Shown: positions 1-45,186, counted from the stretch's first letter. The stretch: DNA of 64,000 nucleotides from Candidatus Heimdallarchaeota archaeon (GCA_030603365.1 JAUVXV010000002.1:128001-192000); one strand, 5' to 3'. The notes: a model not told the origin generated them from the sequence alone. Made by a program: numbers and translations.

Positions 1-402
1 AGCTCTGTTATAACCCATTCTTTCTTTTGAATGAATTAGTTGAATATTATCATATTTTGTTTGAATTTTTGAAATAATATTAGGCGTATTGTCAGTTGAA
101 TCATCTATAACAAAAATTTCAATTCTTGATGGATAATCAATATTCAAAATCGACGATAATTTAGTTTCAATTACTTTTTCCTCATTATGTGTTGGGATTA
201 CAATTGTTATTGGTACATACTGAGTACCTGCAAATTCAGTTTCTGAAGATAATGATTTTCTTGTATTTGATGATTTCACATACACAAAGAGATTGCCTAT
301 TATCAAACTAACAAAATAAAAGAAAATGGGCATGAATGGAACAAATGTTACTATTAGAAATATCAAATCAAGATGTAACATTGGAAACATAAATGTGCCC
401 AT
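1..402 (-). CDS. Glycosyltransferase family 2 (cellulose-synthase-like); 5' part only, runs off the window
   Basis: Not in the ORF track; translated by hand from ATG at 402: MGTFMFPMLHLDLIFLIVTFVPFMPIFFYFVSLIIG...PITIVIPTHNEEKVIETKLSSILNIDYPSRIEIFVIDDSTDNT. N-terminal TM followed by GT2 motifs (IPxxNEE, VIDDSTD). Confidence 0.9.
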   Translation of the reverse strand, partial: MGTFMFPMLHLDLIFLIVTFVPFMPIFFYFVSLIIGNLFVYVKSSNTRKSLSSETEFAGTQYVPITIVIPTHNEEKVIETKLSSILNIDYPSRIEIFVIDDSTDNTPNIISKIQTKYDNIQLIHSKERMGYNRA

Positions 403-647
403 GCTTTAAAATTTTTCTCCTATTTCATTTAAGAAGAATTTTCTAATGCCCTTATTGAATCATCTAGAATGAAAAATTCAATCATTTAAATAAACTAAAT
501 ATAATTCATATGAAAGTAAAGATGTGTTTTACATTGCAAAAGATTATTAATTAAGTATTTAGTTGAAATTGTTGAAGAAAAACTGATAAGACACATCTAA
601 ATTGGAAACTCAACTGTAAATTCAACAAAGTTATTTAAAAAATCAAG

Positions 648-2826: not shown

Positions 2827-3984
2827 TCATTCTCTAATATTCATATTTACCAATGATTCAAACCATTTTAATAATCTCTCAATACCCTCCTCAAATGAGT
2901 AGATAACATAATCTATCTTTTTTATTTTAGAATCATACATTTCCAAAATAATATCTGCTAGTTCTCTTTCATTACCTGCATTAAAAAATTTTGCATATCC
3001 TGTGAATTGCTCAACAGCAGAACCAACTCTAGATGCAATAATTGGAAGATTATAATGTGCTGCTTCTATCAGAGTGAGTTGACATCCCTCTGAAAAGCTA
3101 GCACTTAGGAGAGCAGAGCTTCTATTGTATAGCATGGTTATCGTTTTATTTTCTACATAGCCTAACCATTTAATTTGTTCCTGTATCTTATATTCTCTAA
3201 TTCTTTTTTTAATCTTATTTGTATAAAATTTTCCAAAGAAAGGCATTTCACTACCTGCTATAAGTAGCTTAATGTTCTTATTGTTTGCAATTTTCAATGC
3301 TTCTATAATTGTATGAATACCTTTAGTGTAATAAAGTGATCCAACAAAAAGTAGAAGAAAGTCTCTATCTTTTAATTGATGTGAATTCTGATATATCTTC
3401 CATTCTTCTTCATTGCTCAAATATTCTTTGTAATTACTGAATAAACCATAAGGCAAGGTAAAAATTTTTTCAGCTGAAACTCCTAAATGTATTAAACTTT
3501 TAGTCATGTTCTCTGATATAGAGAGATAGAAGTATCGTTCTTTAATAACTTTTTTCTTAAAGTATTGAATTGTTTTATACCAGACTCTAAAAAGAAGGGA
3601 AATTGAAAAAGGAGATAGATCGTCTTTAATATAAAATCCTGGTTCGTCATGAAATAATATAATGGTCTTGATGTTCTTGGGTGTTGGTAAAGCATAACCA
3701 GAATAAACTGAAGATAGTATTAAATCAGGTTTAATTTTTCTACAAACTTTTCTAAGTTTTTTTTTTCCAAAGATTCTATAGAAAACATATTCAAAAAATG
3801 GAATTTTAAAACTGTAGGTAGGATTGAAAAAGATTTCACCTATACCATCAAATGTTTTATCATCAGTTATTGAAAAAAGATCTATTTTTGTTTCAAAATG
3901 CAACTTTATTAGTTTTGAAATTCTTTCAGCGCCATATTTCGGAGACCCCAATCCTCTAGAAACATACAATACTCTCATAAACAT
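2827..3984 (-). CDS. Glycosyltransferase family 4
   Basis: FVGSLYYTKG and SFSEGCQLTLIEAAHYNLPIIAS (E-x7-E) GT-B motifs. Confidence 0.92.
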   Translation of the reverse strand: MFMRVLYVSRGLGSPKYGAERISKLIKLHFETKIDLFSITDDKTFDGIGEIFFNPTYSFKIPFFEYVFYRIFGKKKLRKVCRKIKPDLILSSVYSGYALPTPKNIKTIILFHDEPGFYIKDDLSPFSISLLFRVWYKTIQYFKKKVIKERYFYLSISENMTKSLIHLGVSAEKIFTLPYGLFSNYKEYLSNEEEWKIYQNSHQLKDRDFLLLFVGSLYYTKGIHTIIEALKIANNKNIKLLIAGSEMPFFGKFYTNKIKKRIREYKIQEQIKWLGYVENKTITMLYNRSSALLSASFSEGCQLTLIEAAHYNLPIIASRVGSAVEQFTGYAKFFNAGNERELADIILEMYDSKIKKIDYVIYSFEEGIERLLKWFESLVNMNIRE

Positions 3985-4028: not shown

Positions 4029-5153
4029 CTAATCTAGCAATCTCATAAATATGTCATCAGAGAGAAAGTAGTTTACAACATTTTCCATTGTAACTGAAAT
4101 AGGGTATTGAGGTTTGTATCCTAATTCTTTTTTAGCTTTTGAATAATCACAAACTAATATATTTACCTCTGTTGGTCTGTATCGCGATTTGTCGATTTCA
4201 AGACGATAGTCAATATCAAATAATGAAGCTGTAAGTTTAGCAAGATTTTCAATTGATATTCCATATCCATGACCTAGATTGTATACTTCACCCTTTGTGC
4301 CATTTAATATTGCTAATATGTATCCTTGAATCATATCTCGAATGTCTGTAAAATCTCTTATTGGTTTAGGGTTACCAATTCTAATAATTCTAGTTCCTTT
4401 CTTAATTGCTCCTGCCACTTGGCTAGCAATAACAGATGTCACGAATTGTAAACCTCTTTTTGGACCTGTATGGTTAAAACCTCTTGTTATTGTAACTGGT
4501 ACACCATATGCTCTAAAGTAAGTGAGTGAATACATTTCTGTAGCGACTTTACTAACTGCGTACGGTGATTGAGGTCTTAATGGATTGTTTTCATTAATTG
4601 GTATTTCATGTGGATGAACTAGTCCATATTCTTCACTACTACAAGCAACTTGCATGCATTGAAGATCAATGTTTTTTTTTCGTATTACTTCTAGTAAATT
4701 GACAGTTCCCTGAATGTTTGTGTGAATTGATTCAATTGGAGCTTTAAAGGATGTTGGGACAAAAGATTGAGCTGCTAAATGAAAAATATAATTTGGTTCT
4801 ATTTCAGTAATAGCTGATTCAAGAGAAGGGTAATCTATTAAATTTGCTTCTTTTAATATCACCTGATCTGTTATATTTCTTATATTTGGAAAAATTGGGA
4901 CAGATTGCCTTCTTACAGTACCGTAAACCTCTATATTCTCATCTAGTTCAACCAGTTTTTCAGCTAAATGACTTCCAACAAAACCAGTTATCCCAGTTAT
5001 TAAGATTCTTGAATCTGCCAATTTATTCCTATCGAAAAGCTCCTTTTTTTCCTTATCAAATTCTTGTAGATATATATCTATACAATCAGGATTTATTAAC
5101 AAATCTTTATATTTTTCATTAATCTCCTCAAAGAACTTATCTTCATTATTCAT
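4029..5153 (-). CDS. gmd: GDP-mannose 4,6-dehydratase-like SDR (Gmd/Rmd group)
   Basis: ITGITGFVG, HLAAQSFV, SSEEYG, YAVSK; adjacent to fcl. FNHTGP is Rmd-like rather than the canonical Gmd FNHESP. Confidence 0.75.
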   Translation of the reverse strand: MNNEDKFFEEINEKYKDLLINPDCIDIYLQEFDKEKKELFDRNKLADSRILITGITGFVGSHLAEKLVELDENIEVYGTVRRQSVPIFPNIRNITDQVILKEANLIDYPSLESAITEIEPNYIFHLAAQSFVPTSFKAPIESIHTNIQGTVNLLEVIRKKNIDLQCMQVACSSEEYGLVHPHEIPINENNPLRPQSPYAVSKVATEMYSLTYFRAYGVPVTITRGFNHTGPKRGLQFVTSVIASQVAGAIKKGTRIIRIGNPKPIRDFTDIRDMIQGYILAILNGTKGEVYNLGHGYGISIENLAKLTASLFDIDYRLEIDKSRYRPTEVNILVCDYSKAKKELGYKPQYPISVTMENVVNYFLSDDIFMRLLD

Positions 5154-6228: not shown

Positions 6229-7584
6229 TTATTCAATTTTTCTATCTCTGTATTTCAATCTACCTTTCTTAATGGAAAGAACAATACATATTCCAGAGAG
6301 AATTAAAGTAGATATGAACCAAGAGAAATTCACAGAAATTAAGTTAAATATAGGTTTGAAGATAAAAATACTTGCAAAATACAATCCAGTTTGTAGTGCA
6401 AACAGTATTTGAAGTAATCCTCTTTCGTTTCTTTGTCGTAATGCTGATATGTATATGAGAAATAGAGAGAGAGGATAAATTGATAACAAAATGAGTAGGA
6501 AAGACCAGAAATAGACCATAGAAAATTCTAAACCAAAAAGACCAATAATGAACTTCTGTAAAGCTAACAATGGAATAATTATTATTGTATCGATAATAAA
6601 TGCAAATTTAAATCTTGAGAGTAGCGTTTTAAGAGTTGTATCTCTTCTCTCTGTTATTAGAACAAAAGACAAAGAATTAGGAAACGAAGCTAACATACCC
6701 AGTATCGCCCAAGAGATATATATAAAAGCAGCATCTTCTGTATTGAAGAGTTTTATTACGATAGGGGTAGTTAGAAGCATTGGTAGAGATTGAATTAATG
6801 TTCCTGTATAATTATTAAATGAGAAAGAAACAAACTTCCGTAGTGAAATACTTTCTCCTTTCTGGGTTTGCGTTTCTGACTTTTCTCTCTTTTTGAATAT
6901 AATGAATAATAAAGTAGCTACAACACTGATTAGTTGAGAAGTTCCCCATACTATAAGCATACTTATTTCAGTATTATGAATATTAGAAAATACTATCAGA
7001 AAAATTCCAGAGAATAAAGACACAGTAAAAATGGCTTCCTTAATTAGCAGAAAATATGGGCTTTTTATCCCTACAAGTATATCATCAAATATAAGGAAAA
7101 GTGACACTATTATAGTAGTTAACAATGTCAAGAAAAACCAATTTGTTTTGCTTATATCTAATAGTTCTCTTAAGTAATTAAAAGTACTAACAAAAACTAA
7201 GGCTGCAATGAAATTAAGAGATAAAGGAATTAAGGAAATTGAGAACAATTGCTTTTTTCTAAAAGAATATAATGGAAATTTTAGAAACGCAGTTTGGATT
7301 CCAAACATCGCAAAAATAGCCCCTAATCTTAGAACAGAAACAACTGAGGACAATACTCCAACACCATCAGCCTCAAAAAAATACCCAATAACTATCCAAA
7401 AGATAAAAGCAATCGCACTACGAAATCCTATTGTAATAAAGCGAAGTATTGTTGCTTTATATACATCTTGTTTCCAATATTTATTGATATTATTAATAAC
7501 ATAATTCTGCATGAAACTCTTCAATTTTAAGCATCTTCCATTCGAAGTTACCATAAGAAATTTAAGTTTCGAATTTTCTTCCAA
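6229..7584 (-). CDS. Oligosaccharide flippase (Wzx/RfbX, MOP superfamily); true start may be about 7512-7554
   Basis: About 12 TM segments, polysaccharide-export pattern, glycan cluster context. Confidence 0.8.
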   Translation of the reverse strand: MEENSKLKFLMVTSNGRCLKLKSFMQNYVINNINKYWKQDVYKATILRFITIGFRSAIAFIFWIVIGYFFEADGVGVLSSVVSVLRLGAIFAMFGIQTAFLKFPLYSFRKKQLFSISLIPLSLNFIAALVFVSTFNYLRELLDISKTNWFFLTLLTTIIVSLFLIFDDILVGIKSPYFLLIKEAIFTVSLFSGIFLIVFSNIHNTEISMLIVWGTSQLISVVATLLFIIFKKREKSETQTQKGESISLRKFVSFSFNNYTGTLIQSLPMLLTTPIVIKLFNTEDAAFIYISWAILGMLASFPNSLSFVLITERRDTTLKTLLSRFKFAFIIDTIIIIPLLALQKFIIGLFGLEFSMVYFWSFLLILLSIYPLSLFLIYISALRQRNERGLLQILFALQTGLYFASIFIFKPIFNLISVNFSWFISTLILSGICIVLSIKKGRLKYRDRKIE

Positions 7585-8338
7585 ATTTCTTATAGTTCCA
7601 AGTTCTACCTACATGTTCTGTTTTACTTATAATCTTCTTATCTTCTCTAACATAAATCCACTTTTTCTGCGGGATTTGCCAATTATCACCATAATAATAT
7701 GCTAAATATTCTTCAGAATTTTGAGGAATAAGAAAATCCATATCATAGAATTTAGTATTCTCTAGACTTAGAAAATATTTACTTGGTGTAACTACCAATC
7801 CTCTTCTGTTACCTGTTTTACTAGCTAAAGTGTTTAAAAAAGAAGCTGTTTTTAGTTTCAAGAATTCAGGAATTAAATCTGTCATTTTTGATCCTATAAA
7901 TTTTATAATTTTCATAGATGAATTAAAAGTTTCTTTGTTAAGTTTTCCAGAATGAGAAAATAGCACTATCCAATTTAATGATGCAAGAACAAAGCCAATT
8001 TTATTTTCAATATATCTTAAAGGAGCAATTACTTCATCCTCTTTCAACCTCCAGAAGACAAGTTGAACATCAATTTCTCCTTTTCTAATCATCATCACAT
8101 TATGATAGACTGAAAAATAGGTTTCATACCCATGCTCACAAAATTCTTTATTCAGTTTTTTCATTTTAGGCATATAAGTATCCCAGGTTCCTAAATCTAT
8201 GTCATAATCCCACTTGATGAAAGCTCCTTCTCTAATAGCACCAAGCAGAGTTCCTGATTCTAACCAAAATTCAACTTCATTTGTTTCTAGAATTTTCTTG
8301 ATTAATTTCAGAGCTTCCACTGCGTCAAATTCTTCCAT
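7562..8338 (-). CDS. licD: LicD/fukutin-family nucleotidyl-activated phospho(no)transferase
   Basis: FWLESGTLLGAIREGAFIKWDYDIDLG and YLAYYYGDNWQIP motifs. Confidence 0.9.
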   Translation of the reverse strand: MEEFDAVEALKLIKKILETNEVEFWLESGTLLGAIREGAFIKWDYDIDLGTWDTYMPKMKKLNKEFCEHGYETYFSVYHNVMMIRKGEIDVQLVFWRLKEDEVIAPLRYIENKIGFVLASLNWIVLFSHSGKLNKETFNSSMKIIKFIGSKMTDLIPEFLKLKTASFLNTLASKTGNRRGLVVTPSKYFLSLENTKFYDMDFLIPQNSEEYLAYYYGDNWQIPQKKWIYVREDKKIISKTEHVGRTWNYKKFGRKFET

Positions 8339-8796: not shown

Positions 8797-9906
8797 ATGA
8801 ATATTGCATATTACATCTCATCTTTTGGATTAGGTCATACTTCTAGAGCAATACCCATTATCCAGAGATTGAAAGCTGAAAATAAGGTTTTTGTTAAATG
8901 CACTTCTTTGAGTATGAACTCTATTAGAGGTAATATACAAAATCAAGATAATCTATTTATTTTTAAGAAAATAAACGATTTATGGTTAAAATATAGATAT
9001 AGTGAACCATTAATTGAAGAAAGTATTGATGAAGCTTACACTTTCTATGAGAATTTGTATGAAAAAATAATTGATCAAGAGAAGAAATTCATTCAAAATA
9101 ATAAAATAGATCTGATTATATCAGATATTGCTCCTTTCCTAGATAAGGTTAGTAAAGAGAACAATATTCCTATTATTGGTATTAGTAACTTTGATTGGGG
9201 AGTGCTTTTCAATCATTTATATGAGAAATATCCATATAGAAAACTAGAAAGAATATCTCAAAGGCTCTCAGATTCTTTTGAATCATATGATCTTCAAATT
9301 GCTTTACCTCTTAATAAAAATCTACTAACTAATAAGAACAGAAAGAAGGTAGGATTTTACACAAAATTAGCAACTAGAAATAAACAAGAGATTTTCAAAT
9401 TACTAAACTTAAAAAATGATTTAATGACGGTTTTCCTTTCTTTAGGAATGTCTATAGATTTGCCATTGGAGACATTTAAAGAAATATTTCTGGAAACTGA
9501 TTATCAAATAGTTGCATCAAATAGAAACAAAATAAAAAATCAATCAAATTTTAAGTTTGTTCCTAAAGGTGATTTTAAAGTTCAAGACTATATTTCTGCA
9601 TCTGACATCTTTATAGGAAAACCAGGCTGGGGATCATTAAGCGAATGCTATTGTTTTTCAATTCCAGCGATTTTAATAGAATTTGGCGAGAATTTAGAAT
9701 GGCAGATTATGATTAATGAATATATCAATTTCAAACCAAATACTTCCAAAATATCTTTCTCTGAATTGAACAGAAAAAACTTAAATAGACTGATTGAAAA
9801 AGCACGAAATACAGAAGAAATAAAAATTGAAGAAAAGTATTCAAAGGCATTGAAAATAAGTAACAAGACTCTTAATGAGATATATAACATAATAAGTGAA
9901 TTTTAG
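8797..9906 (+). CDS. GT-B fold glycosyltransferase-like protein (GT1/GT28-related, similar to arabinokinase N-domain)
   Basis: GLGHTSRA, SDIAP, SNFDW, KPGWGSLSE motifs; first gene upstream of the phosphonate operon. Confidence 0.65.
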   Translation: MNIAYYISSFGLGHTSRAIPIIQRLKAENKVFVKCTSLSMNSIRGNIQNQDNLFIFKKINDLWLKYRYSEPLIEESIDEAYTFYENLYEKIIDQEKKFIQNNKIDLIISDIAPFLDKVSKENNIPIIGISNFDWGVLFNHLYEKYPYRKLERISQRLSDSFESYDLQIALPLNKNLLTNKNRKKVGFYTKLATRNKQEIFKLLNLKNDLMTVFLSLGMSIDLPLETFKEIFLETDYQIVASNRNKIKNQSNFKFVPKGDFKVQDYISASDIFIGKPGWGSLSECYCFSIPAILIEFGENLEWQIMINEYINFKPNTSKISFSELNRKNLNRLIEKARNTEEIKIEEKYSKALKISNKTLNEIYNIISEF

Positions 9907-29901: not shown

Positions 29902-30085
29902 CTGCCATAGGTTAGGATTTTTTCATTTATTTTGACTGCAACAGGAGCACTAATCGGAGATTTTCTGTCTTACCACACAAATAATTTTTTACGTGGTAAG
30001 ATTTTCTTCGCTTGATTTTTTTCCGGATGATTTCCTTCAGCCTAAATGAGGAAGACTTTTATTTTCTTCTTACTTTATTCTCACA

Positions 30086-35238: not shown

Positions 35239-35332
35239 TATTTATGGTTATTTAACAAGGATGTAATGTATCTATAGACCTTGTTTAAACATATATACGT
35301 GCCAAATGAAATCTTATTGTATTCCAAGGGTA

Positions 35333-35347
35333 TTGGTTTAACACCAA
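35333..35347. promoter_or_regulatory. Palindromic operator candidate TTGGT-N5-ACCAA, site 2
   Basis: TTGGTTTAACACCAA, immediately 5' of TTTTTATA (35349-35356) ahead of tauE. Confidence 0.55.
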
Positions 35348-35394
35348 ATTTTTATAGAAGACAAAAATTCTATTCTTCGAAGGATCTGAGAAAT

Positions 35395-36336: not shown

Positions 36337-36391
36337 TGAAATCTTACTCTGTCTAGAAAATGGATTTTACTTTCTATTTACTAGTTATCTT

Positions 36392-37273
36392 CTACGCTCC
36401 CCATTTTAGAATTGTTGAAACTAGAGTAAAGATTGCTATTAGCAATAATGCTATCCCAATAATAAGAAAAATATATCTTGTTTTCACTTTACCTTTCAGA
36501 AAATTCCCAATTGAAGCTCCTACTACCATTGAAATTGTTAAGGTTAGTACTAACCACCAATCAATAGGTAAGTTTCCTCTTGCTATGTAAGTTATCCCAG
36601 TTGCTAGAACCTTTATTACAATTACAAAGAGAGATGTTCCTGATGCTACCAATGGAGAAAATCCAAAGAGTAATATGAAAATAGGTACTTGAAGCCACCC
36701 ACCACTTACTCCAAAGAATCCTGTAATTAGACCAATTGATAAACCAATTAGAAAAGCTAAAGAAAGACTAACTTGGTATTCAAATTCTCCGTTTTTAATT
36801 TTCAATACTGGAGGTAAAGAGTTTAGCTTTGACCATATCTTCTTTTCTGTACTTTCTAAAACACTAGTATTTTCAGTCTCTTTTTTCTTTTTATTTTCTT
36901 GAAAAACCATCAAAAGCATCCTTAACCCAAATATGAATGCAATCACACTTATGAATGAAACAATCACAATTTCATATATTGATTCTAGTCCTATAGCGCC
37001 TAGAATTGCCCCAATGGTTGAGGGAACAACAAAAATAAGACCTAATTTCCAATCAACTTCTTTCCTTCTCCAAGCTCCTATTGTTCCTACTAAAACTGGA
37101 AGAATAAGTGATAAAATAACAGAAACAATTACAATTTCTTCAGCACCAGGATAGAAAAAGAGTATTAAAAATGGAACTAAAAACACTCCTCCACTAAATC
37201 CTGATATATTCCCAACAATACTAATTACAAATGCAATTATTCCAATAATCGCATAAAATTCAGTGGGAAGCAT
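36392..37273 (-). CDS. TauE/SafE (TSUP) family transporter
   Basis: ISGFSGGVFLVP, VDWKLG, FFGVSGGWLQVP, ASGTSLF. Confidence 0.88.
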   Translation of the reverse strand: MLPTEFYAIIGIIAFVISIVGNISGFSGGVFLVPFLILFFYPGAEEIVIVSVILSLILPVLVGTIGAWRRKEVDWKLGLIFVVPSTIGAILGAIGLESIYEIVIVSFISVIAFIFGLRMLLMVFQENKKKKETENTSVLESTEKKIWSKLNSLPPVLKIKNGEFEYQVSLSLAFLIGLSIGLITGFFGVSGGWLQVPIFILLFGFSPLVASGTSLFVIVIKVLATGITYIARGNLPIDWWLVLTLTISMVVGASIGNFLKGKVKTRYIFLIIGIALLLIAIFTLVSTILKWGA

Positions 37274-38940: not shown

Positions 38941-40308
38941 ATGAAATACTTTGAAATGAGTGCAGTATTAGCAGAACAATCAATAAAAAATCGTTCTTTA
39001 ACTATTGCTGTTTTTGGTCAAGGAAAAATGGGTCTCCCTATTAGTGTAGTTTTCTTAGAAGCTGGTTACAAAGTCGTAGGTGTTGATATTAATCCAGAAC
39101 TTGTGGAAAATCTCAACAAAGGTTTAGTTCCTGAAATTAGAGAACCTGGAGTTATAGAAGGGATTAGAAAAGGAATCGAATCGACTAGATACTATGCAAC
39201 CATGTCTATAGAACAAGCACTCGAAGATGCAGACATTATCGTGATTATTATTCCTATAATTGTTGATGATGATAAAATTCCCAACCTTAATCCACTTACT
39301 GAGTTAATGGAAAAGATTGGTAGCAATCTGAAGAAGGGTCATATACTCATTCAAGAAACCACCTTACCCATTGGAACAACTGAAGATGTTATTCTTCCTA
39401 TTTTGGAAATTCATTCTGGCCTAACTGCTGGAGTTGATTTTGGTTTAGGTTTCTCTCCTGAACGAACATATAGTGGTAGAGTTCTAAAAGATATTACTGA
39501 AAATTATCCCAAGATTATTGGAGGTATTAATCTAAAAAGCACTGATAGGATGGCTCTTTTCTACAGTTCTTTCGTACAGAAAGGAGTGATTGAAACGAGT
39601 TCAGCAAAGACTGCTGAAACCGTCAAAGTATTCAAGGGTGTATATAGAGACATAAATATCGCTATTGCTAATGAACTTGCAAAGATTGCTGAAAAACTAG
39701 ATGTTGATTTTTATGAAGTAAGAAAAGCTGTTAATTCAGAGCCTTCTGGTAACCTATTACTTCCTGGAGCTGGAGTAGGAGGACACTGTATTCCTGTTTA
39801 TCCTCATTTCCTTATTCAAACCGCTAAGAATCTTGGTGTCAAACCCACGATAATTCAAGCTGGAAGAGAAGTAAATATGTCAATGCCCCAACATGTTATA
39901 AATAAAATTATTCAGGGTTTGACCTACTTAGATAAGGACATTAAAACATCTAAAATTGCTTTACTTGGATTATCGTATCGTGGCAATGTAAAAGAACATC
40001 GTTATTCCCCTAGCATTGACATAATTCGTATCCTAAATGATGATCAACTCAATGTCTATCTACATGACCCTCTTTACAAACCAGAGGAAATAAAAGAAAT
40101 TGTTTCTGTGAATTTCAGTGAAAATTTAGAAGAAGTACTTACTGAAGCTGATTGTATTATCCTTTTGGCAGATCACAAAGATTATGAAAAATCATTAGTT
40201 AGCAAAATGGAATCTTTGGCAAACAAACCTTATATTTTCATAGATACAAGGAACATTTACGAAATAGAAGAAACTGAAGAAAGGAAGGTCTATAGAATCG
40301 GTGTTTGA
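38941..40308 (+). CDS. UDP-N-acetylhexosamine 6-dehydrogenase (WecC/WbpA/WbpO family)
   Basis: GQGKMG, ETTLPIGTT, FSPER, PGAGVGGHCIPVYP, LGLSYRGNVKEHRYSP. Confidence 0.9.
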   Translation: MKYFEMSAVLAEQSIKNRSLTIAVFGQGKMGLPISVVFLEAGYKVVGVDINPELVENLNKGLVPEIREPGVIEGIRKGIESTRYYATMSIEQALEDADIIVIIIPIIVDDDKIPNLNPLTELMEKIGSNLKKGHILIQETTLPIGTTEDVILPILEIHSGLTAGVDFGLGFSPERTYSGRVLKDITENYPKIIGGINLKSTDRMALFYSSFVQKGVIETSSAKTAETVKVFKGVYRDINIAIANELAKIAEKLDVDFYEVRKAVNSEPSGNLLLPGAGVGGHCIPVYPHFLIQTAKNLGVKPTIIQAGREVNMSMPQHVINKIIQGLTYLDKDIKTSKIALLGLSYRGNVKEHRYSPSIDIIRILNDDQLNVYLHDPLYKPEEIKEIVSVNFSENLEEVLTEADCIILLADHKDYEKSLVSKMESLANKPYIFIDTRNIYEIEETEERKVYRIGV

Positions 40309-40309
40309 G

Positions 40310-41011
40310 TTACATTTGCCATCTTACAACTTCGAATGCTTCTGCATATCTAGCTCTTATTTGAGTACCTCTAACTGCAGCTAATCCTCTAGCATATTCT
40401 TCACTGAAATATTGTCTATACATTTCCATTTGAGATTTGTAAAATTGTAAAATTTCTATTTTTGAACGCACGTGATCTTCAGTTAATTCAACAAACAACT
40501 GTGTGTTAAATTCAATATGATTCCACGGAAGTTCATAGCAGATTATAGAAGAATGAGTCTTGAATGCTCTAATCATCTCATTTGCCACAACTTGGTGATC
40601 TTGATGGAAATCATGAATTGAAGGTCCAATTACTAAATCAGGTTGGTAATTCTGCCTTACTTTAACAAGGTGATCCAATATTTCTTGCCGATAATCTGGA
40701 AGCTTTCTAACTTCATAGGAAAATATTTCTTTTTTGATTGTCAATATGAATTTGTTTTCTAAATATCCTATCACATCAAGGAACTCATTTCTCAGAGTAT
40801 TCTTATCCACTCCTTCTGGTAATGACTTCTCAGCTGTTGAAAAAACCATCCAGTATGTATCCCAGCCATTTTCCATGAGTTTGCTAAGTGTGCCACCTGC
40901 GCCTAGTTCAACATCATCAGTATGCGGACTTAAAACTAAAACTTTCATTAAGATAATATTTACTAAATGTTTTAAAAACTTTAAGACTAAAAACGAGTCA
41001 AAACCTATCAT
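40310..41011 (-). CDS. PIG-L/LmbE family N-acetylhexosamine deacetylase; likely start at MKVLVLSPH
   Basis: SPHTDDVELGAGG, HQDH, YKSQ, YAEAFE. Confidence 0.9.
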   Translation of the reverse strand: MIGFDSFLVLKFLKHLVNIILMKVLVLSPHTDDVELGAGGTLSKLMENGWDTYWMVFSTAEKSLPEGVDKNTLRNEFLDVIGYLENKFILTIKKEIFSYEVRKLPDYRQEILDHLVKVRQNYQPDLVIGPSIHDFHQDHQVVANEMIRAFKTHSSIICYELPWNHIEFNTQLFVELTEDHVRSKIEILQFYKSQMEMYRQYFSEEYARGLAAVRGTQIRARYAEAFEVVRWQM

Positions 41012-42249
41012 TTTAGCTCTTTTTTCACTATATTTGCATATTTTATAGCTAAGTTGAATCTGCCATATTCTGTTAATTTTGTTTTATTACAACCATATTC
41101 AAGTTCGGTGTTTTTCCATTTTTTAAAGAGATTATCTAAAACTTTAGTTATTGAGTCTGCTTTACCTTCAACAAGACTATACTTTTGTTCAATGACATCA
41201 CACCAATCAGAAATTTCTCCTTTACCGCCTATAATCAATATATGGGAGTTTCCTACTGCATAATCATAGATTTTTGTAGCTAATGCGTATTCTACTGATG
41301 ATGGAACAAATACAAAATTTAAGTGTGATTTTTGTATTTCTTCAATTAAGGTTTTTCCTTCCAAATGTCCTAAATCCTCGAAATAAGGAAGTAAATCTCC
41401 TCTAGCAAGATCTCTATGTATAGCTGTTCGTGATGTGAGTCCTGCGTACCTTATTGCAAGCTGTTCAGGATTGAGATTGTTTTTATCAATCATCTCTTTT
41501 AAACCCATAACAAACTCACTAAAGTAAGGTTTGTGTACTTTGTAGTAATTCCCAAAGTATGATATAGTAAATTTATCTTCTATTTTTGGAACTTCTTTAT
41601 CTGGTACATTTGATTCAAAATATCCATTTGGAATAATATGAAAAGTTTCCTTCTCAACACCTGAGCTATCTCCTAACAGCTGTGCGCACTCATTTCCTAC
41701 AGCTACGTTTATGCGTGCATGTCTTGTGATTTTGCTTTCAAGTTTTCTATGTCTTTTCCTAACAATAAATCTGGGAAGAGTAAATGTGGGATTTGATGTC
41801 CAAGGATCTCTATGGTCAACGATTAGAGGGATGTCGTATTTTTTTGACAGTTTATATCCAACAACTGCAGCTGAATAGGGTGGTAAAGTTACCATTATTG
41901 CATCAATTTCAAGTTCTTTCAGAGCTTTTTCTCCTACTTTCAATGCTCTTCGTATCCAAGGAAAGTAAAGATCAGGGAAAAATAGTAGTCTGTCTAGGTT
42001 AAATAATTCCAGACCAACTAGAATTTTGGTTTTATATCCGATTTTTCTAATCTGAGATTCTTTAGCTTGATAAATATCTGATAAGTTGTGATAATTTTTC
42101 AATTCTTCTAATTCTGAAATTTCTTGATTTGCAGTTAAAAGAGCAATATTGATTCCCTCCTCTACAAATACCTTGGTTATACTTGAAGCTCGATGACCTC
42201 CTACTGCTTTATCGGGAGGAAAAAAATAGGATATAAATAAAATTCTCAT
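41008..42249 (-). CDS. Glycosyltransferase family 4-like
   Basis: MRILFISYFFPP..GGHR, DHRDPW, IPNGY, KIYDY. Confidence 0.85.
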   Translation of the reverse strand: MRILFISYFFPPDKAVGGHRASSITKVFVEEGINIALLTANQEISELEELKNYHNLSDIYQAKESQIRKIGYKTKILVGLELFNLDRLLFFPDLYFPWIRRALKVGEKALKELEIDAIMVTLPPYSAAVVGYKLSKKYDIPLIVDHRDPWTSNPTFTLPRFIVRKRHRKLESKITRHARINVAVGNECAQLLGDSSGVEKETFHIIPNGYFESNVPDKEVPKIEDKFTISYFGNYYKVHKPYFSEFVMGLKEMIDKNNLNPEQLAIRYAGLTSRTAIHRDLARGDLLPYFEDLGHLEGKTLIEEIQKSHLNFVFVPSSVEYALATKIYDYAVGNSHILIIGGKGEISDWCDVIEQKYSLVEGKADSITKVLDNLFKKWKNTELEYGCNKTKLTEYGRFNLAIKYANIVKKELK

Positions 42250-42282
42250 TCCTTATCACTTCATCCTTTGGTAAGTTGTGAT

Positions 42283-43068
42283 TTATGGTCTTTTAAGGGG
42301 TTTTCCTGGATTACCGATTATAACAGAGTTATCAGGAACATCTCTAATAACAACAGTTCCTAAACCAATAAGAGCATCACTTCCAATAGTTATATTCTCT
42401 CTTATTGATGCATTAGGAGCAACCCAAACATTATCTCCTAAAGTTACGCTACCACTTACTTCAGCACATGCAATTATCAGACAATTCCTTCCTATTTTAA
42501 CTCCATGTGCTATATGAACTAAATTATCTATTTTTGTACCTTCACCTATTATAGTATCATTTAGAGCTCCTCTATCAACTACTACACATGAACCAATATC
42601 CACATTATCTTCAATTACTACTCCGCTTATCTGAGGGAATGTTACCCATTTGTTCTCTTTTTCATCCTTGACATATCCAAAACCTGGTTTGCCAATTACT
42701 GTGTTAGCATGAATAGTGACATTGTTTCCGATCTTCGTATCTCCATAGATTACAACATTTTGGTGCAAGGTGACGTTTTTTCCCAAAACAACATTTTCTC
42801 CAATACTAACGGTTGAATGAATAGAAGATTCTTTTTCGGGTAGATTTTTGTTAACAATTTTAGCAAAAGCTAATCTAGGATCATCAGAAATAATAAATTC
42901 CTCAGCTATATTTAGCAATTTCTTTATCTTTTCTGTCGTTACAATTGTAATGTTCTTTACTGCTCGTTCTTTATATGTTTGAAGGAATTTCTCTACGTAT
43001 TTTGGGGATTTTAAGAAAGTAATACACCCATCTTCCAACTGATCCATAGGTTTTGGATTAATCTTCAT
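42283..43068 (-). CDS. LpxD-like hexapeptide-repeat N-acyltransferase
   Basis: [47 protein letters not shown]. Confidence 0.85.
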
Positions 43069-43133: not shown

Positions 43134-43943
43134 TTGATAAGGTTAATAATGGTTTTGGAGATAGAAAGAGAAATAGATGCCAAATACTTCACAATTCCAT
43201 TTGATGAATTAGTTGAAGAAAACCCGGAATTAGCTATTTTTCTTACTTCCATTAAACCTGCAAAATTTGATTTAGGAAATACTGATGTTCTATCTAAGGT
43301 CAATAAATGTCTTTTCAAAAGTGTATTAGGACTAAATATTTCTGTGCCTGAAAAATATCTCATTCCTACTTTAGGTATAAGGTATGCTTATTGCGATACG
43401 ATCGTATCTTATGTTAATTCTAATCTCCCCTTCATAGAAATTGGTACAGGAGCAAGTGCAGCTATTGCACTTATTCTATCTAAGAAATATCAGAAAGAGG
43501 TTATAGCTACTGAATTGAATGAGTTATCTTTTTCTGCTGCTAAAAAAAATGTTGTCGCTAATCAATTAGAATCTTTTGTGAGCTTGTTAAAATCAGAAGG
43601 AGAAATTATTGAGAATCTTATTCCTGAAGGTAAATACGCCTCTTTACTTTGCTATCCACCACATTATGAACAGGATTTAACAAGACTTGAGAAAAAAAGA
43701 GGTTGGAAGGGAACATATGACGAGTTGATTGGTGGAGGAGAGGATGGTATGAATTTTACTAAGAATTTAATAGGTGAGGTATTTAACTCAAAAAAAGTTC
43801 AATTTGAAACTATATCTGTTATGCTAAATAATAGAAATCAAATTGAGAAAGTTCTATCACTTTTACCTGAAAAAGTAGAAAATAAAATCCTTCAATTAAA
43901 TGCTGGGACTAGGAAGCGTTTCATTCTTCTTCTTTATCCTTAA
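43134..43943 (+). CDS. RlmF/METTL16-like SAM-dependent methyltransferase
   Basis: [29 protein letters not shown] in place of [13 protein letters not shown]. Confidence 0.75.
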
Positions 43944-45186
43944 AATCAGATGATGCCTTGCTTTCTAAGTATTTCAAGATTAGAAGTGATATCATTGATA
44001 CATATAGAATTACAGTTATTATCCAAGCTGAAATGTAAGTAAAGAGATTTGTTTGGTCATAAGTTAGAATATAATCTGCTGCGATCCCACCTGAAACAGT
44101 ACTTAGCAGAAATATTCCACTCACTAAACCTATATTTCCTTTCTTGAAAAGAGTGATGAAAATAAAGGGAAAAATTATCACAAAATAGGAAAATTGTATT
44201 TTTGGAAAGAATAAGAGAAAAGGCATCAATAATATCATTGTATCTTCGAAAGTCCATTTTTTCTTATCTAGAAGTAGAATTAAACTAAACAAACTTACGA
44301 AGAAAATTGTCACACCCAGAAAAACATAATTGCTTATAGATACATCTGCACTCTTGGTAAACAGATCAAAAAATGCTGATATACCCTGATTTCTAGCATT
44401 ATCAAGAGGGTAATTGAATTGTGCCTTGAAAGCTTCAGAATCAACAAAATAGAATGGGAGGTAAGTTGCTGTTATTCCTAAAAGTGCAAAAAACACCTGA
44501 AATAAACCTTTCCGAATATTCTTATTATAAATCAAGAACAAAGGTAGCAGAAGAATGGGAAAATACTTCAGACCTGCTCCTACGACTAAGGATAATGTAG
44601 CTAGATAATATTTCTCTTTTTCTAGAAGATATATTGGTAAAATTATCAGAAGCGGAACAATACATTCATCTGATCCCCAGAAAGTTACTAGATAAAGAAA
44701 ATAAGGATTTATTGAATAACAGAGTGCAATCCAGAATGACCGTTTATTTTTCTTTGCATCTAATATTTTGAATAATAACACTGCAGATAAAATCAGACAG
44801 ATTGAAAAAAATACTCTGAAAATATATGAAGAAAAGATCATGCTAGAAGAATCTAGATAGGTTGAATACAATAGATATTCAGCTGGAAATTGCCCAGTGA
44901 AAATCATGGATATCAAAACTATTGGAGCCCAAAGATATGGACTTAAAGGAGCAGCTTGTGTATAGAAGTCTCGATATGGAATATCACCTTTCAGAATACC
45001 AGTTCCTCTATTATAGAACACTAATTGATCGGAAATAAAGAGGTTATAGTCTGAATCAACAAAATATATGATTAGACCGTGAAGAACAATAATACATGAG
45101 TAGACAATTATAGAAACAGCTATTAGCTTTGATAGCTCACTCATTTTTAGCTTTCTTAATTGGGTATCTTGTTGTTGTTCTTCCAA
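43921..45186 (-). CDS. GT-C membrane glycosyltransferase (GT87/DUF2029, mannosyltransferase-like)
   Basis: SDQLVFY, GDIPYRDF...PLSPYLW, NPY, GSDE, KYFPILLLP. Confidence 0.75.
   Translation of the reverse strand: MEEQQQDTQLRKLKMSELSKLIAVSIIVYSCIIVLHGLIIYFVDSDYNLFISDQLVFYNRGTGILKGDIPYRDFYTQAAPLSPYLWAPIVLISMIFTGQFPAEYLLYSTYLDSSSMIFSSYIFRVFFSICLILSAVLLFKILDAKKNKRSFWIALCYSINPYFLYLVTFWGSDECIVPLLIILPIYLLEKEKYYLATLSLVVGAGLKYFPILLLPLFLIYNKNIRKGLFQVFFALLGITATYLPFYFVDSEAFKAQFNYPLDNARNQGISAFFDLFTKSADVSISNYVFLGVTIFFVSLFSLILLLDKKKWTFEDTMILLMPFLLFFPKIQFSYFVIIFPFIFITLFKKGNIGLVSGIFLLSTVSGGIAADYILTYDQTNLFTYISAWIITVILYVSMISLLILKYLESKASSDFKDKEEE

What the first reader, a model, noticed from the sequence alone, without database searches (positions are those of the whole stretch)
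1..45186. Polyanionic glycocalyx locus: phosphonate, sulfate, nonulosonate, pyruvate and uronate modules together in a probable Asgard archaeon
Seen: five separate anion-adding modules within about 45 kb. They are HEP synthesis + LicD, PAPS synthesis + three sulfotransferases, NeuB/NeuA-PseG, a pyruvyltransferase and a UDP-HexNAc dehydrogenase. Two flippases, fucose enzymes and at least six GTs accompany them. Inference: one or two lipid-linked glycans with a sulfated, sialic-like, fucosylated, phosphonylated character, loosely analogous to eukaryotic glycocalyx chemistry. I know of no characterised Asgard surface glycan of this type.
Basis: partly seen in the sequence, partly recalled or inferred. 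Interest (0 to 1): 0.8.

Follow-up and report, generated by a model that had tools for sequence, protein, structure and literature searches.

The report
Acidic surface-glycan gene island, Heimdall archaeon
A Heimdall-group (Asgard) archaeon carries a large gene island that should build cell-surface sugars decorated with several acidic groups; every part belongs to a known enzyme family, but the combination and its conservation in relatives give a concrete, testable prediction about the still unknown surface chemistry of Asgard archaea.

Summary
Within window 1-45186, Pfam/NCBIfam find a Fom1-type cytidylyltransferase-PEP mutase, Ppd, Fe-ADH and LicD (2-hydroxyethylphosphonate). They also find NeuB with a NeuA-PseG-like fusion, PAPS synthase with CysQ and two PAPS-type sulfotransferases, a pyruvyltransferase, a nucleotide-sugar dehydrogenase, two Wzx-like flippases and about six glycosyltransferases.

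Corrections:
- The third "sulfotransferase" is an ASST-type, membrane-anchored, probably extracellular enzyme of a family known to work without PAPS.
- The "GMD" is nearest to an Rmd reductase.
- About 6.7 kb of non-glycan genes interrupt the stretch.
- The island starts about 3.1 kb left of the window.

The genome is Asgard, class Heimdallarchaeia: named Taw1 relatives, archaeal SSU rRNA, ESCRT-II and ribophorin I.

Relatives keep a linked frame of NeuB/NeuA-PseG, CysQ-PAPS synthase, pyruvyltransferase-Wzx and a GT-B protein of unknown specificity. The phosphonate plus 6-deoxyhexose cassette is accessory: PEP mutase is in 6 of 83 class genomes, and only one congener has the full arrangement. 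Another congener carries a canonical PseB/DegT nonulosonate cassette at the same place.

This looks like an O-antigen-like variable glycan island: a new member of a known kind. Whether all the anions decorate one glycan is untested. The scan had noted other sugar pathways in Heimdall genomes, but not this combination on other DNA.

The parts
1..402 (-). GT2 glycosyltransferase, cut by the window edge. The full gene is 403 aa and continues left of the window, followed there by a second GT2 and a sugar-1-P nucleotidyltransferase.
   Evidence: Pfam Glycos_transf_2; ORFs in L030
648..2807 (+). 719-aa polytopic membrane protein (about 16 TM). Possible Wzy-like polymerase or ligase; function not established.
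   Evidence: Hydropathy; only a weak Wzy_C_2 hit, E 0.2; no homologue in the G030 locus
2827..3984 (-). GT4-type (GT-B) glycosyltransferase
   Evidence: Glycos_transf_1 90.4 bits; 63% homologue at the same place in G030
4029..5153 (-). GDP-sugar extended SDR, Rmd/GMD-like. It is the only candidate 4,6-dehydratase for the 6-deoxyhexose branch.
   Evidence: GDP_Man_Dehyd 252.7 bits; gmd model 154 against a cut-off of 415; nearest solved structure is Rmd 2pk3, 222 bits; no gmd over the cut-off in the genome
5248..6195 (-). GDP-L-fucose synthase (Fcl)-like
   Evidence: NCBIfam GDPFucSynFcl 486.8 bits against a cut-off of 500
6229..7584 (-). 12-13-TM membrane protein, candidate second Wzx/MOP flippase. 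Its gene overlaps the LicD gene.
   Evidence: Hydropathy; Atlas neighbours are Polysacc_synt clusters, 0.99; no Pfam hit
7562..8338 (-). LicD-family phosphotransferase, candidate transferase of 2-hydroxyethylphosphonate from CMP-HEP to a glycan or glycolipid
   Evidence: LicD 55.9 bits; best NCBIfam hit is the glycolipid cholinephosphotransferase Mf1, 61 bits, below its cut-off; DxD motifs
8797..9906 (+). Weak GT-B (MurG-like) glycosyltransferase candidate
   Evidence: Glyco_trans_1_3 E 6e-5 and Glyco_tran_28_C E 0.0035, both below the Pfam cut-offs
10000..11301 (+). Fom1-type fusion: N-terminal cytidylyltransferase plus PEP mutase
   Evidence: Pfam and NCBIfam; EDKxxxxxNS and HxGH motifs; fusion type described in PMC6697681
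11301..12431 (+). Phosphonopyruvate decarboxylase
   Evidence: TIGR03297 440.6 bits against a cut-off of 312.5
12453..13607 (+). Fe-dependent alcohol dehydrogenase, candidate phosphonoacetaldehyde reductase (makes 2-HEP)
   Evidence: Fe-ADH Pfam; best NCBIfam hit is Phn_Fe-ADH, 265.7, below the cut-off of 423.7
13619..14362 (+). LicC/PntC-like or sugar-1-P nucleotidyltransferase
   Evidence: NTP_transf_3 44.4 bits; no equivalog passed
14476..15525 (-). Nonulosonic acid synthase (NeuB family); sugar type unresolved
   Evidence: NeuB 255 bits plus SAF; NeuB_NnaB 322.5 and PseI 264.9, both below their cut-offs; SpsE 184, NeuB 172 and PseI 163 bits
15533..17236 (-). Fusion of a CMP-nonulosonate synthetase (NeuA/PseF-like) with a PseG-like GT-B domain
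   Evidence: full-length fusion in 8 family relatives and in 3 more distant class genomes
17320..18477 (-). PAPS-type sulfotransferase (Sulfotransfer_3), cytoplasmic
   Evidence: 84.1 bits; no TM segment
18592..20709 (+). ASST-type arylsulfotransferase with N- and C-terminal hydrophobic anchors, probably extracellular. Followed at 20775-21644 by a partner protein with the same anchoring.
   Evidence: Arylsulfotrans 80.4 bits; TM segments; repeated ASST + partner pairs in G030 and G021
21861..22442 (-). Short (193 aa) sulfotransferase with a PRSGT 5'-PSB-like motif
   Evidence: Sulfotransfer_1 47.5 and Sulfotransfer_3 49.7 bits; motif; homologue of the same length in G005
22604..23635 (+). Polysaccharide pyruvyltransferase
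   Evidence: PS_pyruv_trans 70.9 bits; PyrT-Wzx pair conserved in G002, G021, G022 and G009
23695..25341 (+). Wzx-type flippase
   Evidence: Polysacc_synt 30.7 bits against a cut-off of 28.2; about 13 TM
25344..31936 (.). Non-glycan interval: TPR protein, TFB-like protein, two membrane proteins and an Eco57I/TaqI_C-type methylase. TPR, TFB-like and methylase keep this place in relatives.
   Evidence: Pfam; synteny
31993..32799 (+). CysQ-like 3'-phosphoadenosine-5'-phosphate phosphatase
   Evidence: Inositol_P 208.8 bits; bisphos_cysQ 169.7, below the cut-off of 228.8
32771..34522 (+). Bifunctional ATP sulfurylase / APS kinase (PAPS synthase). The true start is probably the ATG at about 32792.
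   Evidence: start position from the alignment with relatives
35281..37273 (.). Two TauE/SafE-family anion permeases, on opposite strands
   Evidence: TauE 100.6 and 133.8 bits
37318..38778 (-). GT-B-fold protein of an Asgard-wide family. Specificity unknown: candidate nonulosonate transferase or phospho-alcohol transferase.
   Evidence: AF2 pLDDT 91; Z 18 to UDP-GlcNAc 2-epimerases and Z 16.6 to TarL; over 1270 homologues; Atlas leads; present in every relative's locus
38941..40308 (+). Nucleotide-sugar 6-dehydrogenase, nearest to the UDP-ManNAc dehydrogenase type
   Evidence: TIGR03026 374.5 bits against a cut-off of 189.8; archaeal UDP-ManNAc DH 263.8, below its cut-off
40310..43068 (-). 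PIG-L de-N-acetylase, GT4 glycosyltransferase and LpxD-like hexapeptide N-acyltransferase
   Evidence: Pfam; LpxD subfamily 212.8 bits against a cut-off of 207
43921..45186 (-). GT87-like GT-C membrane glycosyltransferase
   Evidence: GT87 33.4 bits against a cut-off of 25; 9 TM

Best explanation
This is a variable, Wzx-dependent surface-glycan biosynthesis island in the chromosome of a Heimdallarchaeia (Asgard) archaeon.

Frame shared by the family
- It makes a CMP-activated nonulosonic acid (NeuB plus the NeuA-PseG-like fusion).
- It makes PAPS (ATP sulfurylase/APS kinase, with CysQ removing PAP) for cytoplasmic sulfotransferases.
- It adds pyruvate ketals (pyruvyltransferase) and flips the lipid-linked unit (Wzx).
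- A nucleotide-sugar dehydrogenase supplies a HexNAc uronate.
- GT4, GT87 and a GT-B protein of unknown specificity assemble the glycan.

Accessory cassette, in this species and one congener
- PEP goes to phosphonopyruvate (PepM), then to phosphonoacetaldehyde (Ppd), then to 2-HEP (Fe-ADH), then to CMP-HEP (the Fom1-type CyTase domain).
- LicD transfers HEP onto a sugar of a second lipid-linked unit. That unit carries a GDP-derived 6-deoxyhexose (Fcl plus the Rmd/GMD-like SDR) and is exported by its own flippase.

What is shown: family membership of the enzymes, their catalytic motifs, single-copy clustering, and conservation and variation of the locus in relatives.
What is inferred: the order of reactions, the acceptor, and that the products are surface glycans carrying several anions at once.
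For: - Enzyme families and cut-offs. Motifs EDKxxxxxNS, HxGH and PRSGT.
- Fom1-type CyTase-Ppm fusions make CMP-HEP, and LicD-like transferases accompany surface phosphonate clusters: PMC6697681.
- PepM, NeuB, NeuA-PseG and PAPS synthase are single-copy in the genome.
- Synteny. G030 repeats almost the whole order, from GT4 through LicD, PepM, NeuB, NeuA-PseG, ST3 and ASST to CysQ, PAPS synthase, the GT-B protein and the dehydrogenase. G021, G002, G022, G016, G009 and G005 keep NeuA-PseG/NeuB, pyruvyltransferase-Wzx, CysQ-PAPS synthase, the GT-B protein and GT4, without the phosphonate/6-deoxyhexose cassette.
- G026 has a canonical PseB/DegT/NeuB/NeuA cassette at the same place. This is the cassette swapping typical of O-antigen-like loci.
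- No NIR_SIR sulfite reductase in the genome, which fits PAPS being used for sulfation.
- Taxonomy: archaeal SSU rRNA; Taw1 is 75-84% identical to five named or unnamed archaeal MAG records, two titled Heimdallarchaeota and one Promethearchaeati; EAP30 and Ribophorin_I are present while absent over the cut-off in 14 control genomes.
Against: - No glycan has been analysed; everything about the product is inference.
- No initiating phosphoglycosyltransferase, Wzy with a credible hit, or AglB lies in the window. AglB is on contig 14 and the only Glycos_transf_4 gene is on contig 1.
- The nonulosonate route lacks a PseB-type dehydratase and a NeuC. It has only one unlinked DegT and a non-hydrolysing WecB in an 89%-complete genome. 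NeuB, PseF and PseG all score below their equivalog cut-offs.
- Four other sulfotransferase genes lie elsewhere, so PAPS supply is not private to this island.
- About 6.7 kb of non-glycan genes split the stretch.
- The Fe-ADH and Fcl score below their equivalog cut-offs, and the dehydratase is Rmd-like.
Confidence: 0.65

Rival explanations
1. The stretch is a neighbourhood of independent modules, not one 'polyanionic glycan' system. The PAPS synthase/CysQ/TauE block is a general sulfation supply for sulfotransferases all over the genome. The ASST acts outside the cell on phenolic or other small substrates. The nonulosonate, pyruvate, uronate and phosphonate groups go to different glycoconjugates (N-glycans, an exopolysaccharide, glycolipids).
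For: - Four more Sulfotransfer_3 genes lie on other contigs.
- The ASST has terminal anchors and belongs to a PAPS-independent family.
- Non-glycan genes occupy 25344-31936.
- Two separate flippases are present.
- Module order is reshuffled between relatives, and the phosphonate cassette is present in only a few.
Against: - NeuA-PseG/NeuB, pyruvyltransferase-Wzx, CysQ-PAPS synthase and the GT-B protein stay within about 10-30 kb of each other in at least seven relatives from three genera.
- Sulfotransferase genes sit directly beside NeuA-PseG here, in G030 and in G005, and beside the other nonulosonate cassette in G026.
Confidence: 0.25
2. The phosphonate cassette does not decorate a glycan. 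It makes a phosphonolipid head group or a soluble CMP-HEP-derived metabolite, with LicD acting on a lipid or glycolipid acceptor.
For: - The best NCBIfam hit of LicD is the Mycoplasma glycolipid cholinephosphotransferase Mf1 (61 bits).
- Fom1-type fusions also occur in small-molecule pathways such as fosfomycin (PMC6697681).
- In G052 and G004 the PepM operon was found without a LicD homologue in the stretch fetched.
Against: - The LicD hit is far below its cut-off of 225.
- No Fom3/Fom4-, MpnS- or HepD-type tailoring genes appear in the window.
- LicD overlaps a flippase gene and lies among GT4, GT2 and GDP-sugar genes, in the same order in G030.
Confidence: 0.08
3. The contig is not Asgard: it is a mis-binned bacterial or other archaeal contig.
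For: Glycan islands are often horizontally acquired. G+C in the first 12 kb (0.27-0.30) is a little below the genome's 0.33.
Against: - The contig is 467 kb and has the G+C of the other 16 contigs.
- It carries Taw1, a TFB-like gene and TPR/longin genes whose order is shared with contigs titled Heimdallarchaeota (L002, L004).
- G021:C32 has the same length (53404) as the Heimdallarchaeota contig JAGLTB010000032.1 and holds both Taw1 and the glycan frame.
Confidence: 0.02

Closest known systems
Bacterial Wzx/Wzy-dependent O-antigen and capsule loci with swappable sugar cassettes
   Same: - Nucleotide-sugar synthesis genes, glycosyltransferases, modifying enzymes and a Wzx flippase are clustered.
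- Conserved flanks carry different cassettes in congeners: the minimal NeuB/NeuA-PseG type here, a PseB/DegT type in G026, and a phosphonate cassette in only a few.
   Different: - The host is archaeal.
- No credible Wzy, chain-length regulator or initiating transferase lies in the locus.
- A TFB-like gene and a DNA methylase are conserved inside it.
- The lipid carrier and the final acceptor are unknown.
Phosphonyl-tailoring (Pnt) clusters and Fom1-type CyTase-Ppm fusions (Rice et al. 2019, PMC6697681)
   Same: PF01467-Ppm fusion with the EDKxxxxxNS motif, Ppd, a second NTP_transf_3 nucleotidyltransferase and a LicD-like transferase, set among glycan genes.
   Different: Most described surface clusters make 2-AEP through an aminotransferase. 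Here an Fe-ADH stands in its place, which predicts 2-HEP. No product has been measured.
Nonulosonate pathways: C. jejuni Pse, and the B. subtilis sps legionaminic acid route (PMC7439481)
   Same: A NeuB-family synthase (nearest solved structure SpsE), a CMP-transferase and a PseG-like GT-B domain.
   Different: - CMP-transferase and PseG-like domain are fused.
- No PseB/SpsM dehydratase or PseH/SpsD acetyltransferase is linked. No PseB-type gene was found in the genome; the only DegT is unlinked.
- All equivalog scores are below their cut-offs, so the sugar made is unknown.
Acidic archaeal N-glycans: sulfated uronate glycans of Halobacterium salinarum, legionaminic acid glycan of Halorubrum sp. 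PV6 (review PMC11407970)
   Same: Archaeal surface glycans that carry sulfate, uronic acids or a sialic-like acid; negative charge is proposed to keep filaments apart.
   Different: Those were shown chemically in Euryarchaeota, each with one or two kinds of anion. Here there are up to five predicted kinds in an Asgard genome, with no chemistry and no link to AglB shown.
Sulfated bacterial exopolysaccharide clusters (e.g. synechan of Synechocystis, PMC8205485)
   Same: Sulfotransferase genes are embedded in a polysaccharide assembly locus (title and abstract only).
   Different: That paper was not read in detail here. It concerns a different domain of life, and no nonulosonate or phosphonate module is named in its title or abstract.

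Membership tests
PEP mutase (Ppm) | EDKxxxxxNS catalytic motif and a score over the equivalog cut-off | tested here: met
   [10 protein letters not shown] at residue 259; TIGR02320 399.8 against 319.55
Fom1-type HEP cytidylyltransferase domain (PF01467 fused to Ppm) | N-terminal PF01467 domain with the HxGH nucleotide-binding motif, fused to Ppm | tested here: met
   CTP_transf_like 59.4 bits at residues 11-132; HAGH at residue 14. Substrate (HEP) not testable here.
Phosphonopyruvate decarboxylase | Score over the equivalog cut-off | tested here: met
   TIGR03297 440.6 against 312.5
Phosphonoacetaldehyde reductase (PhpC/FomC-type Fe-ADH) | Score over the phosphonate-type Fe-ADH cut-off | tested here: inconclusive
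   TIGR03405 is the best hit but scores 265.7 against 423.7. Its position in the PepM-Ppd operon supports the role.
LicD phosphotransferase | Pfam LicD over the gathering score | tested here: met
   55.9 against 22.6. Donor and acceptor not testable here.
Nonulosonate synthase (NeuB family) | NeuB plus SAF domains | tested here: met
   255.2 and 50.4 bits
Neu5Ac/Leg synthase or Pse synthase equivalogs | Score over the cut-off of TIGR03569 or TIGR03586 | tested here: not met
   322.5 against 399.65 and 264.9 against 340.25. The sugar type is therefore left open.
Canonical pseudaminic/legionaminic pathway | PseB/LegB-type 4,6-dehydratase, PseC/LegC aminotransferase and an N-acetyltransferase, together with PseG/LegG, the synthase and the CMP-transferase | tested here: not met
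   Best Polysacc_synt_2 hit in the genome is 59 bits. One unlinked DegT, below the PseC cut-off. PseG 153.3 against 153.55 and PseF 135.5 against 205.7. The genome is 89% complete, so absence is not proven.
PAPS synthesis (ATP sulfurylase + APS kinase) | Both catalytic domains over their cut-offs | tested here: met
   PRK04149 553.7 against 387; PRK00889 265.1 against 244. The bifunctional equivalog scores 589.9 against 669.
PAPS-dependent sulfotransferases | Sulfotransfer_1/3 domain over the gathering score, with a 5'-PSB loop | tested here: met
   84.1 bits (17320-18477); 47.5 and 49.7 bits (21861-22442). PRSGT loop in the short protein; the regex for the loop did not match the longer one, where a related ARAGTT stretch is seen.
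Polysaccharide pyruvyltransferase | PF04230 over the gathering score | tested here: met
   70.9 against 25.3
UDP-HexNAc 6-dehydrogenase (WecC/WbpA type) | Score over the equivalog cut-off for a UDP-ManNAc or UDP-GlcNAc dehydrogenase | tested here: inconclusive
   The nucleotide-sugar dehydrogenase subfamily is met (374.5 against 189.8). The UDP-ManNAc DH equivalogs score 263.8 against 750 and 235.8 against 459.
GDP-L-fucose pathway (Gmd + Fcl) | A GDP-mannose 4,6-dehydratase and a GDP-fucose synthase | tested here: inconclusive
   Fcl 486.8 against 500. The gmd model scores 154 against 415, the nearest structure is an Rmd reductase, and no gmd over the cut-off is in the genome.
Asgard archaea, class Heimdallarchaeia | Archaeal rRNA, closest named relatives, eukaryotic signature proteins | tested here: met
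   SSU_rRNA_archaea 1298 bits. Taw1 is 84% and 78% identical to records titled Heimdallarchaeota. EAP30 76 bits and Ribophorin_I 62.9 bits, with no control genome over the cut-off. No marker-gene tree was built.

The most novel reading that the evidence does not exclude
Heimdallarchaeaceae share a minimal, undescribed route to a sialic-acid-like sugar. It consists of NeuB, the NeuA-PseG-like fusion and the Asgard-wide GT-B protein at 37318-38778, and it starts from a common UDP-HexNAc without the dehydratase, aminotransferase and acetyltransferase steps. Its product, together with sulfate and pyruvate (and 2-HEP in some species), forms a conserved polyanionic coat on the closest archaeal relatives of eukaryotes.
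Probability: 0.15. Interest if true: 0.7.

Novelty: new member of a known kind. Interest (0 to 1): 0.4.

Why it matters
- No Asgard surface glycan has been characterised in the literature I could search. The terms Asgard/Heimdall combined with sulfotransferase, nonulosonic, sialic acid or phosphonate returned nothing relevant.
- The island gives a specific, checkable prediction of what such a surface may carry.
- Comparison with relatives shows which parts are a family-wide frame and which are strain-level variables. That pattern is expected if viruses or partners select on the surface.
- The same CyTase-PepM fusion is present at 71% identity in the cultured Ca. Lokiarchaeum ossiferum, so the phosphonate part can be tested in culture.
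- Each enzyme family is well known and such islands are common in bacteria and other archaea. The finding is useful annotation rather than a new kind of system.

Tried and rejected
1. In-frame TGA in the PAPS synthase of six relatives suggested selenocysteine. The alignment shows the TGA lies at residue 5 of the TTG-started ORF, upstream of the likely ATG start, so it is not Sec.
The organism name had to come from named relatives instead.
3. PF27908, precomputed on some homologues of the GT-B protein, is not in the local Pfam copy.
4. A profile of the GT-B protein against PDB sequences found nothing (best E 1.1). The fold searches give GT-B matches tied within 1-2 Z units (2-epimerases, MurG, TarL, assorted GTs), so they do not settle its function.
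5. Typing NeuB as Neu, Leg or Pse from scores was inconclusive.
6. The neighbourhoods of the genome's only DegT and only Epimerase_2 genes are unrelated: NAD kinase, aromatic lyases, a peptidase, and a TauE gene next to the epimerase. They are not a hidden second half of the pathway.
7. No Pfam hit, even at E up to 1, for 6229-7584, 20775-21644 and most other hypotheticals.
8. I did not build a marker-gene or NeuB phylogeny, because no reference sequences were available by reference.

Full report
**What is in the window**

From left to right the glycan genes are:
- a GT2 (cut by the window edge), a 16-TM membrane protein and a GT4;
- an extended SDR of the GDP-sugar type and an Fcl-like GDP-fucose synthase;
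- a 12-13-TM protein overlapping LicD, and a weak GT-B;
- the operon CyTase-PepM / Ppd / Fe-ADH / NTP_transf_3;
- NeuB and a NeuA-PseG-like fusion on the other strand;
- a Sulfotransfer_3 protein, an ASST with a partner protein, and a short sulfotransferase;
- a pyruvyltransferase and a Wzx.

About 6.7 kb (25344-31936) follows with a TPR protein, a TFB-like protein, two small membrane proteins and an Eco57I/TaqI_C methylase.

The glycan genes then resume:
- CysQ-like phosphatase, PAPS synthase and two TauE permeases;
- a 486-aa protein without Pfam hits and a nucleotide-sugar dehydrogenase;
- PIG-L deacetylase, GT4, an LpxD-like hexapeptide acyltransferase, a methyltransferase and a GT87-like GT-C.

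The island begins left of the window. The cut GT2 is 403 aa. Beyond it lie another GT2 and a 336-aa sugar-1-phosphate nucleotidyltransferase, then unrelated solute-binding proteins.

**How firm the assignments are**

NCBIfam equivalog models give three tiers.

| Tier | Enzyme | Score against cut-off |
|---|---|---|
| Over the cut-off | PEP mutase | 399.8 / 319.55 |
| Over the cut-off | Ppd | 440.6 / 312.5 |
| Over the cut-off | ATP sulfurylase subfamily | 553.7 / 387 |
| Over the cut-off | APS kinase subfamily | 265.1 / 244 |
| Over the cut-off | nucleotide-sugar dehydrogenase subfamily | 374.5 / 189.8 |
| Over the cut-off | LpxD-like subfamily | 212.8 / 207 |
| Near the cut-off | Fcl | 486.8 / 500 |
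| Near the cut-off | PseG | 153.3 / 153.55 |
| Best hit, clearly below | phosphonate-type Fe-ADH | 265.7 / 423.7 |
| Best hit, clearly below | NeuB_NnaB | 322.5 / 399.65 |
| Best hit, clearly below | PseI | 264.9 / 340.25 |
| Best hit, clearly below | PseF | 135.5 / 205.7 |
| Best hit, clearly below | CysQ | 169.7 / 228.8 |

PepM has the diagnostic EDKxxxxxNS motif, and its N-terminal domain has HxGH.

According to Rice et al. 2019, 23.6% of Ppm enzymes carry this PF01467 domain. Its prototype, Fom1, makes CMP-HEP, and LicD-like transferases accompany surface phosphonate clusters (PMC6697681). With an Fe-ADH in the place of the usual AEP aminotransferase, the predicted product is CMP-2-hydroxyethylphosphonate. 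LicD would then hand HEP to a sugar.

**Corrections to the observation**

- The ASST (18592-20709) has hydrophobic segments at both ends. It belongs to a family that transfers sulfate between phenolic compounds without PAPS (general knowledge). It is probably an extracellular enzyme, not a third consumer of PAPS. It and its partner protein recur as two or three tandem pairs in relatives.
- The presumed GMD (4029-5153) scores 154 against the gmd cut-off of 415. It is closest to the GDP-6-deoxy-D-lyxo-4-hexulose reductase Rmd (2pk3, 222 bits), while GMDs reach at most 134 bits. No gene in the genome passes the gmd cut-off. So a GDP-6-deoxyhexose branch (fucose and/or rhamnose) is likely, but the dehydratase step rests on a non-canonical enzyme.
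- The second flippase (6229-7584) has no Pfam hit. It is supported only by topology and by Atlas neighbours that are Polysacc_synt clusters.

**Taxonomy**

- The assembly has 17 contigs, 3.65 Mb and even G+C of about 0.33, with an archaeal SSU rRNA.
- Taw1 from the window is 75-84% identical to five relatives. The 84% and 78% records are titled Candidatus Heimdallarchaeota archaeon, the 76% record Promethearchaeati archaeon, and the other two 'uncultured archaeon'.
- The genes around Taw1 (HEAT protein, methylase, TPR proteins) are in the same order there.
- The genome encodes ESCRT-II EAP30 (76 bits) and ribophorin I (62.9 bits). None of 14 control prokaryotes has either over the cut-off.
- Homologues of the 486-aa protein are named Heimdallarchaeaceae, Heimdallarchaeum endolithica, Thorarchaeota and Promethearchaeota.
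- Contig C32 of relative G021 has the length (53404) of the Heimdallarchaeota contig JAGLTB010000032.1.

**Relatives**

Across 83 genomes of the class:

| Query | Genomes with a match (of 83, own included) |
|---|---|
| CyTase-PepM fusion | 6 |
| NeuB-family gene | 35 |
| ATP sulfurylase / PAPS synthase | 45 |
| Full-length NeuA-PseG fusion | 12 (own, 8 in the same family, 3 more distant) |

I fetched 20 stretches and mapped all window proteins onto them.

- G030, same genus, repeats almost the whole arrangement: GT4, SDR, Fcl, flippase, LicD, PepM, Ppd, ADH and NTase. NeuB follows, split over two contig ends. Then come NeuA-PseG, ST3, ASST pairs, TPR, TFB-like, methylase, CysQ, PAPS synthase, the 486-aa protein and the dehydrogenase.
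- G021, G022, G016 and G009 (same genus), G002 and G005 (other genera of the family) keep NeuA-PseG/NeuB, pyruvyltransferase-Wzx, CysQ-PAPS synthase, the 486-aa protein and GT4 within about 10-30 kb. The order is shuffled, and the phosphonate and 6-deoxyhexose genes are absent.
- G026 (same genus) has, next to Wzx/CysQ/PAPS synthase/486-aa protein/dehydrogenase, a different cassette. It consists of a sulfotransferase, a hexapeptide acetyltransferase, a NeuB at 39% identity, a stand-alone NeuA, a PseB-type dehydratase (297 bits) and a DegT aminotransferase.

The picture is a conserved frame with exchangeable cassettes, as in O-antigen or capsule loci. The phosphonate/6-deoxyhexose part, however, is accessory and rare.

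**The nonulosonate module**

The genome has one DegT gene and one Epimerase_2 gene, both in unrelated neighbourhoods. The epimerase is a non-hydrolysing WecB (330 against 210), not a NeuC. The best Polysacc_synt_2 match is 59 bits.

NeuB is about equally close to SpsE (184 bits), N. meningitidis NeuB (172) and a PseI (163). In B. subtilis, SpsE, SpsF and the PseG-like SpsG work in a legionaminic acid route that also needs SpsM, SpsC and SpsD (PMC7439481). No linked counterparts of those three exist here, or in the seven relatives with the same two-gene module.

So either the missing genes lie in the unassembled 11%, or the module uses a simpler precursor. I cannot tell which sugar is made.

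**The 486-aa protein (37318-38778)**

- It is in every relative's locus and has over 1270 homologues.
- An AlphaFold model from a 44-sequence alignment is confident: pLDDT 91.2, pTM 0.90.
- It is a GT-B fold. UDP-GlcNAc 2-epimerases score Z 18.0-16.0, MurG 17.2 and TarL 16.6. TarL is the only match that also covers the N-terminal helices.
- These values are tied, so the fold does not give the function.
- Some homologues carry Glyphos_transf. Atlas neighbours include clusters auto-named 'sialyltransferase family' and CDP-glycerol glycerophosphotransferase.
- Invariant H359-P360 and E252-x-Q-H-G recall, from memory only, the HP motif of CMP-sugar-dependent GT-B transferases.

My reading is a candidate nonulosonate or phospho-alcohol transferase. 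A NeuC-like hydrolysing epimerase is the alternative. Neither was tested.

**Sulfate**

- No NIR_SIR sulfite reductase was found. The only strong PAPS_reduct domain sits in a 672-aa ORF. This fits PAPS being made for sulfation, within the limits of an 89%-complete genome.
- The genome has four more Sulfotransfer_3 genes on other contigs, so the PAPS block is a shared supply.

**What is missing from the island**

AglB (contig 14) and the only Glycos_transf_4-type initiating enzyme (contig 1) lie elsewhere. No credible Wzy was found. The 719-aa membrane protein has only an E 0.2 hit to Wzy_C_2.

**Literature and earlier notes**

- Searches of the held library found no paper on sulfated, nonulosonate- or phosphonate-bearing glycans in Asgard archaea.
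- The 2024 review of archaeal N-glycosylation mentions Asgard only for AglB motifs.
- A 2022 inventory of Ppm neighbourhoods covered 12 archaeal neighbourhoods and does not mention Asgard.
- The CyTase-PepM fusion itself is common. About 70%-identical copies are annotated in Woesearchaeota, Nanoarchaeota, Promethearchaeota and both Ca. Lokiarchaeum ossiferum genomes.
- Earlier notes of this scan on the same genome describe the same sub-modules. On other Heimdall genomes the scan noted a colitose-type GDP-sugar pathway, not this combination.

**Verdict**

This is a real, non-random and taxonomically confirmed glycan island. Its gene content predicts surface glycoconjugates with up to five kinds of acidic group.

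It is built wholly from known families and behaves like a variable O-antigen-type locus. I class it as a new member of a known kind, with moderate interest (0.4). The more novel possibilities are a minimal family-wide nonulosonate route and a conserved polyanionic coat in Heimdallarchaeaceae. They are not excluded, but they rest on missing genes in an incomplete genome and on no chemistry.

Noticed in passing
window 25344-31936: A TPR protein, a TFB-like protein (weak TFIIB zinc-ribbon hit) and an Eco57I/TaqI_C-type methylase sit between the glycan cassette and CysQ-PAPS synthase. They keep that position in G030, G021, G022, G016, G009 and G031. The TFB paralogue could be a regulator of the locus, or these could simply be conserved neighbours.
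   Followed up: partly
window 18592-21644; L009 11685-17995; L014 796-15012: The ASST and a 289-aa partner, both with N- and C-terminal hydrophobic segments, recur as two or three tandem pairs in congeners. The partner has no Pfam hit.
   Followed up: partly
window 40310-43068: A hexapeptide acyltransferase passes the NCBIfam LpxD subfamily cut-off (212.8 against 207) in an archaeon. It lies one gene (a GT4) away from a PIG-L de-N-acetylase. This suggests exchange of the N-acetyl group of a hexosamine for another acyl group.
   Followed up: no
window 37318-38778: A GT-B protein family with over 1270 homologues. The named ones are all Asgard (Heimdall, Thor, Promethearchaeota). It has a confident model but unknown specificity.
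   Followed up: partly
L024 13963-19900 (G026, same genus): A canonical nonulosonate cassette (sulfotransferase, hexapeptide acetyltransferase, NeuB, NeuA, PseB-type dehydratase, DegT) occupies the place of the minimal NeuB/NeuA-PseG module. This is cassette swapping within a genus.
   Followed up: partly
window 34507-34878: A 123-aa protein without Pfam hits is conserved directly downstream of PAPS synthase in G030, G016, G009, G031 and G017 (53-63% identity).
   Followed up: partly
window 45256-47211: An MFS transporter fused to a PhoU_div (DUF47) domain, conserved at 68% identity in G021 next to the GT87 gene.
   Followed up: no
window 49175-55423: Three large TPR proteins in a row. One has a weak Fuz/MON1-type longin domain hit (E 5e-5, below the cut-off) and two TM segments. 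They are conserved next to Taw1 in five relatives.
   Followed up: no
window 57633-58892: A TnpB/OrfB_IS605-type gene. A 79%-identical copy lies in the glycan region of G002 (L013 9194-10438).
   Followed up: no
G000 C14:25012-25545: A PAPS_reduct domain (157 bits) lies inside a 672-aa ORF. That is much longer than a CysH, so it is unlikely to be a plain assimilatory PAPS reductase.
   Followed up: no
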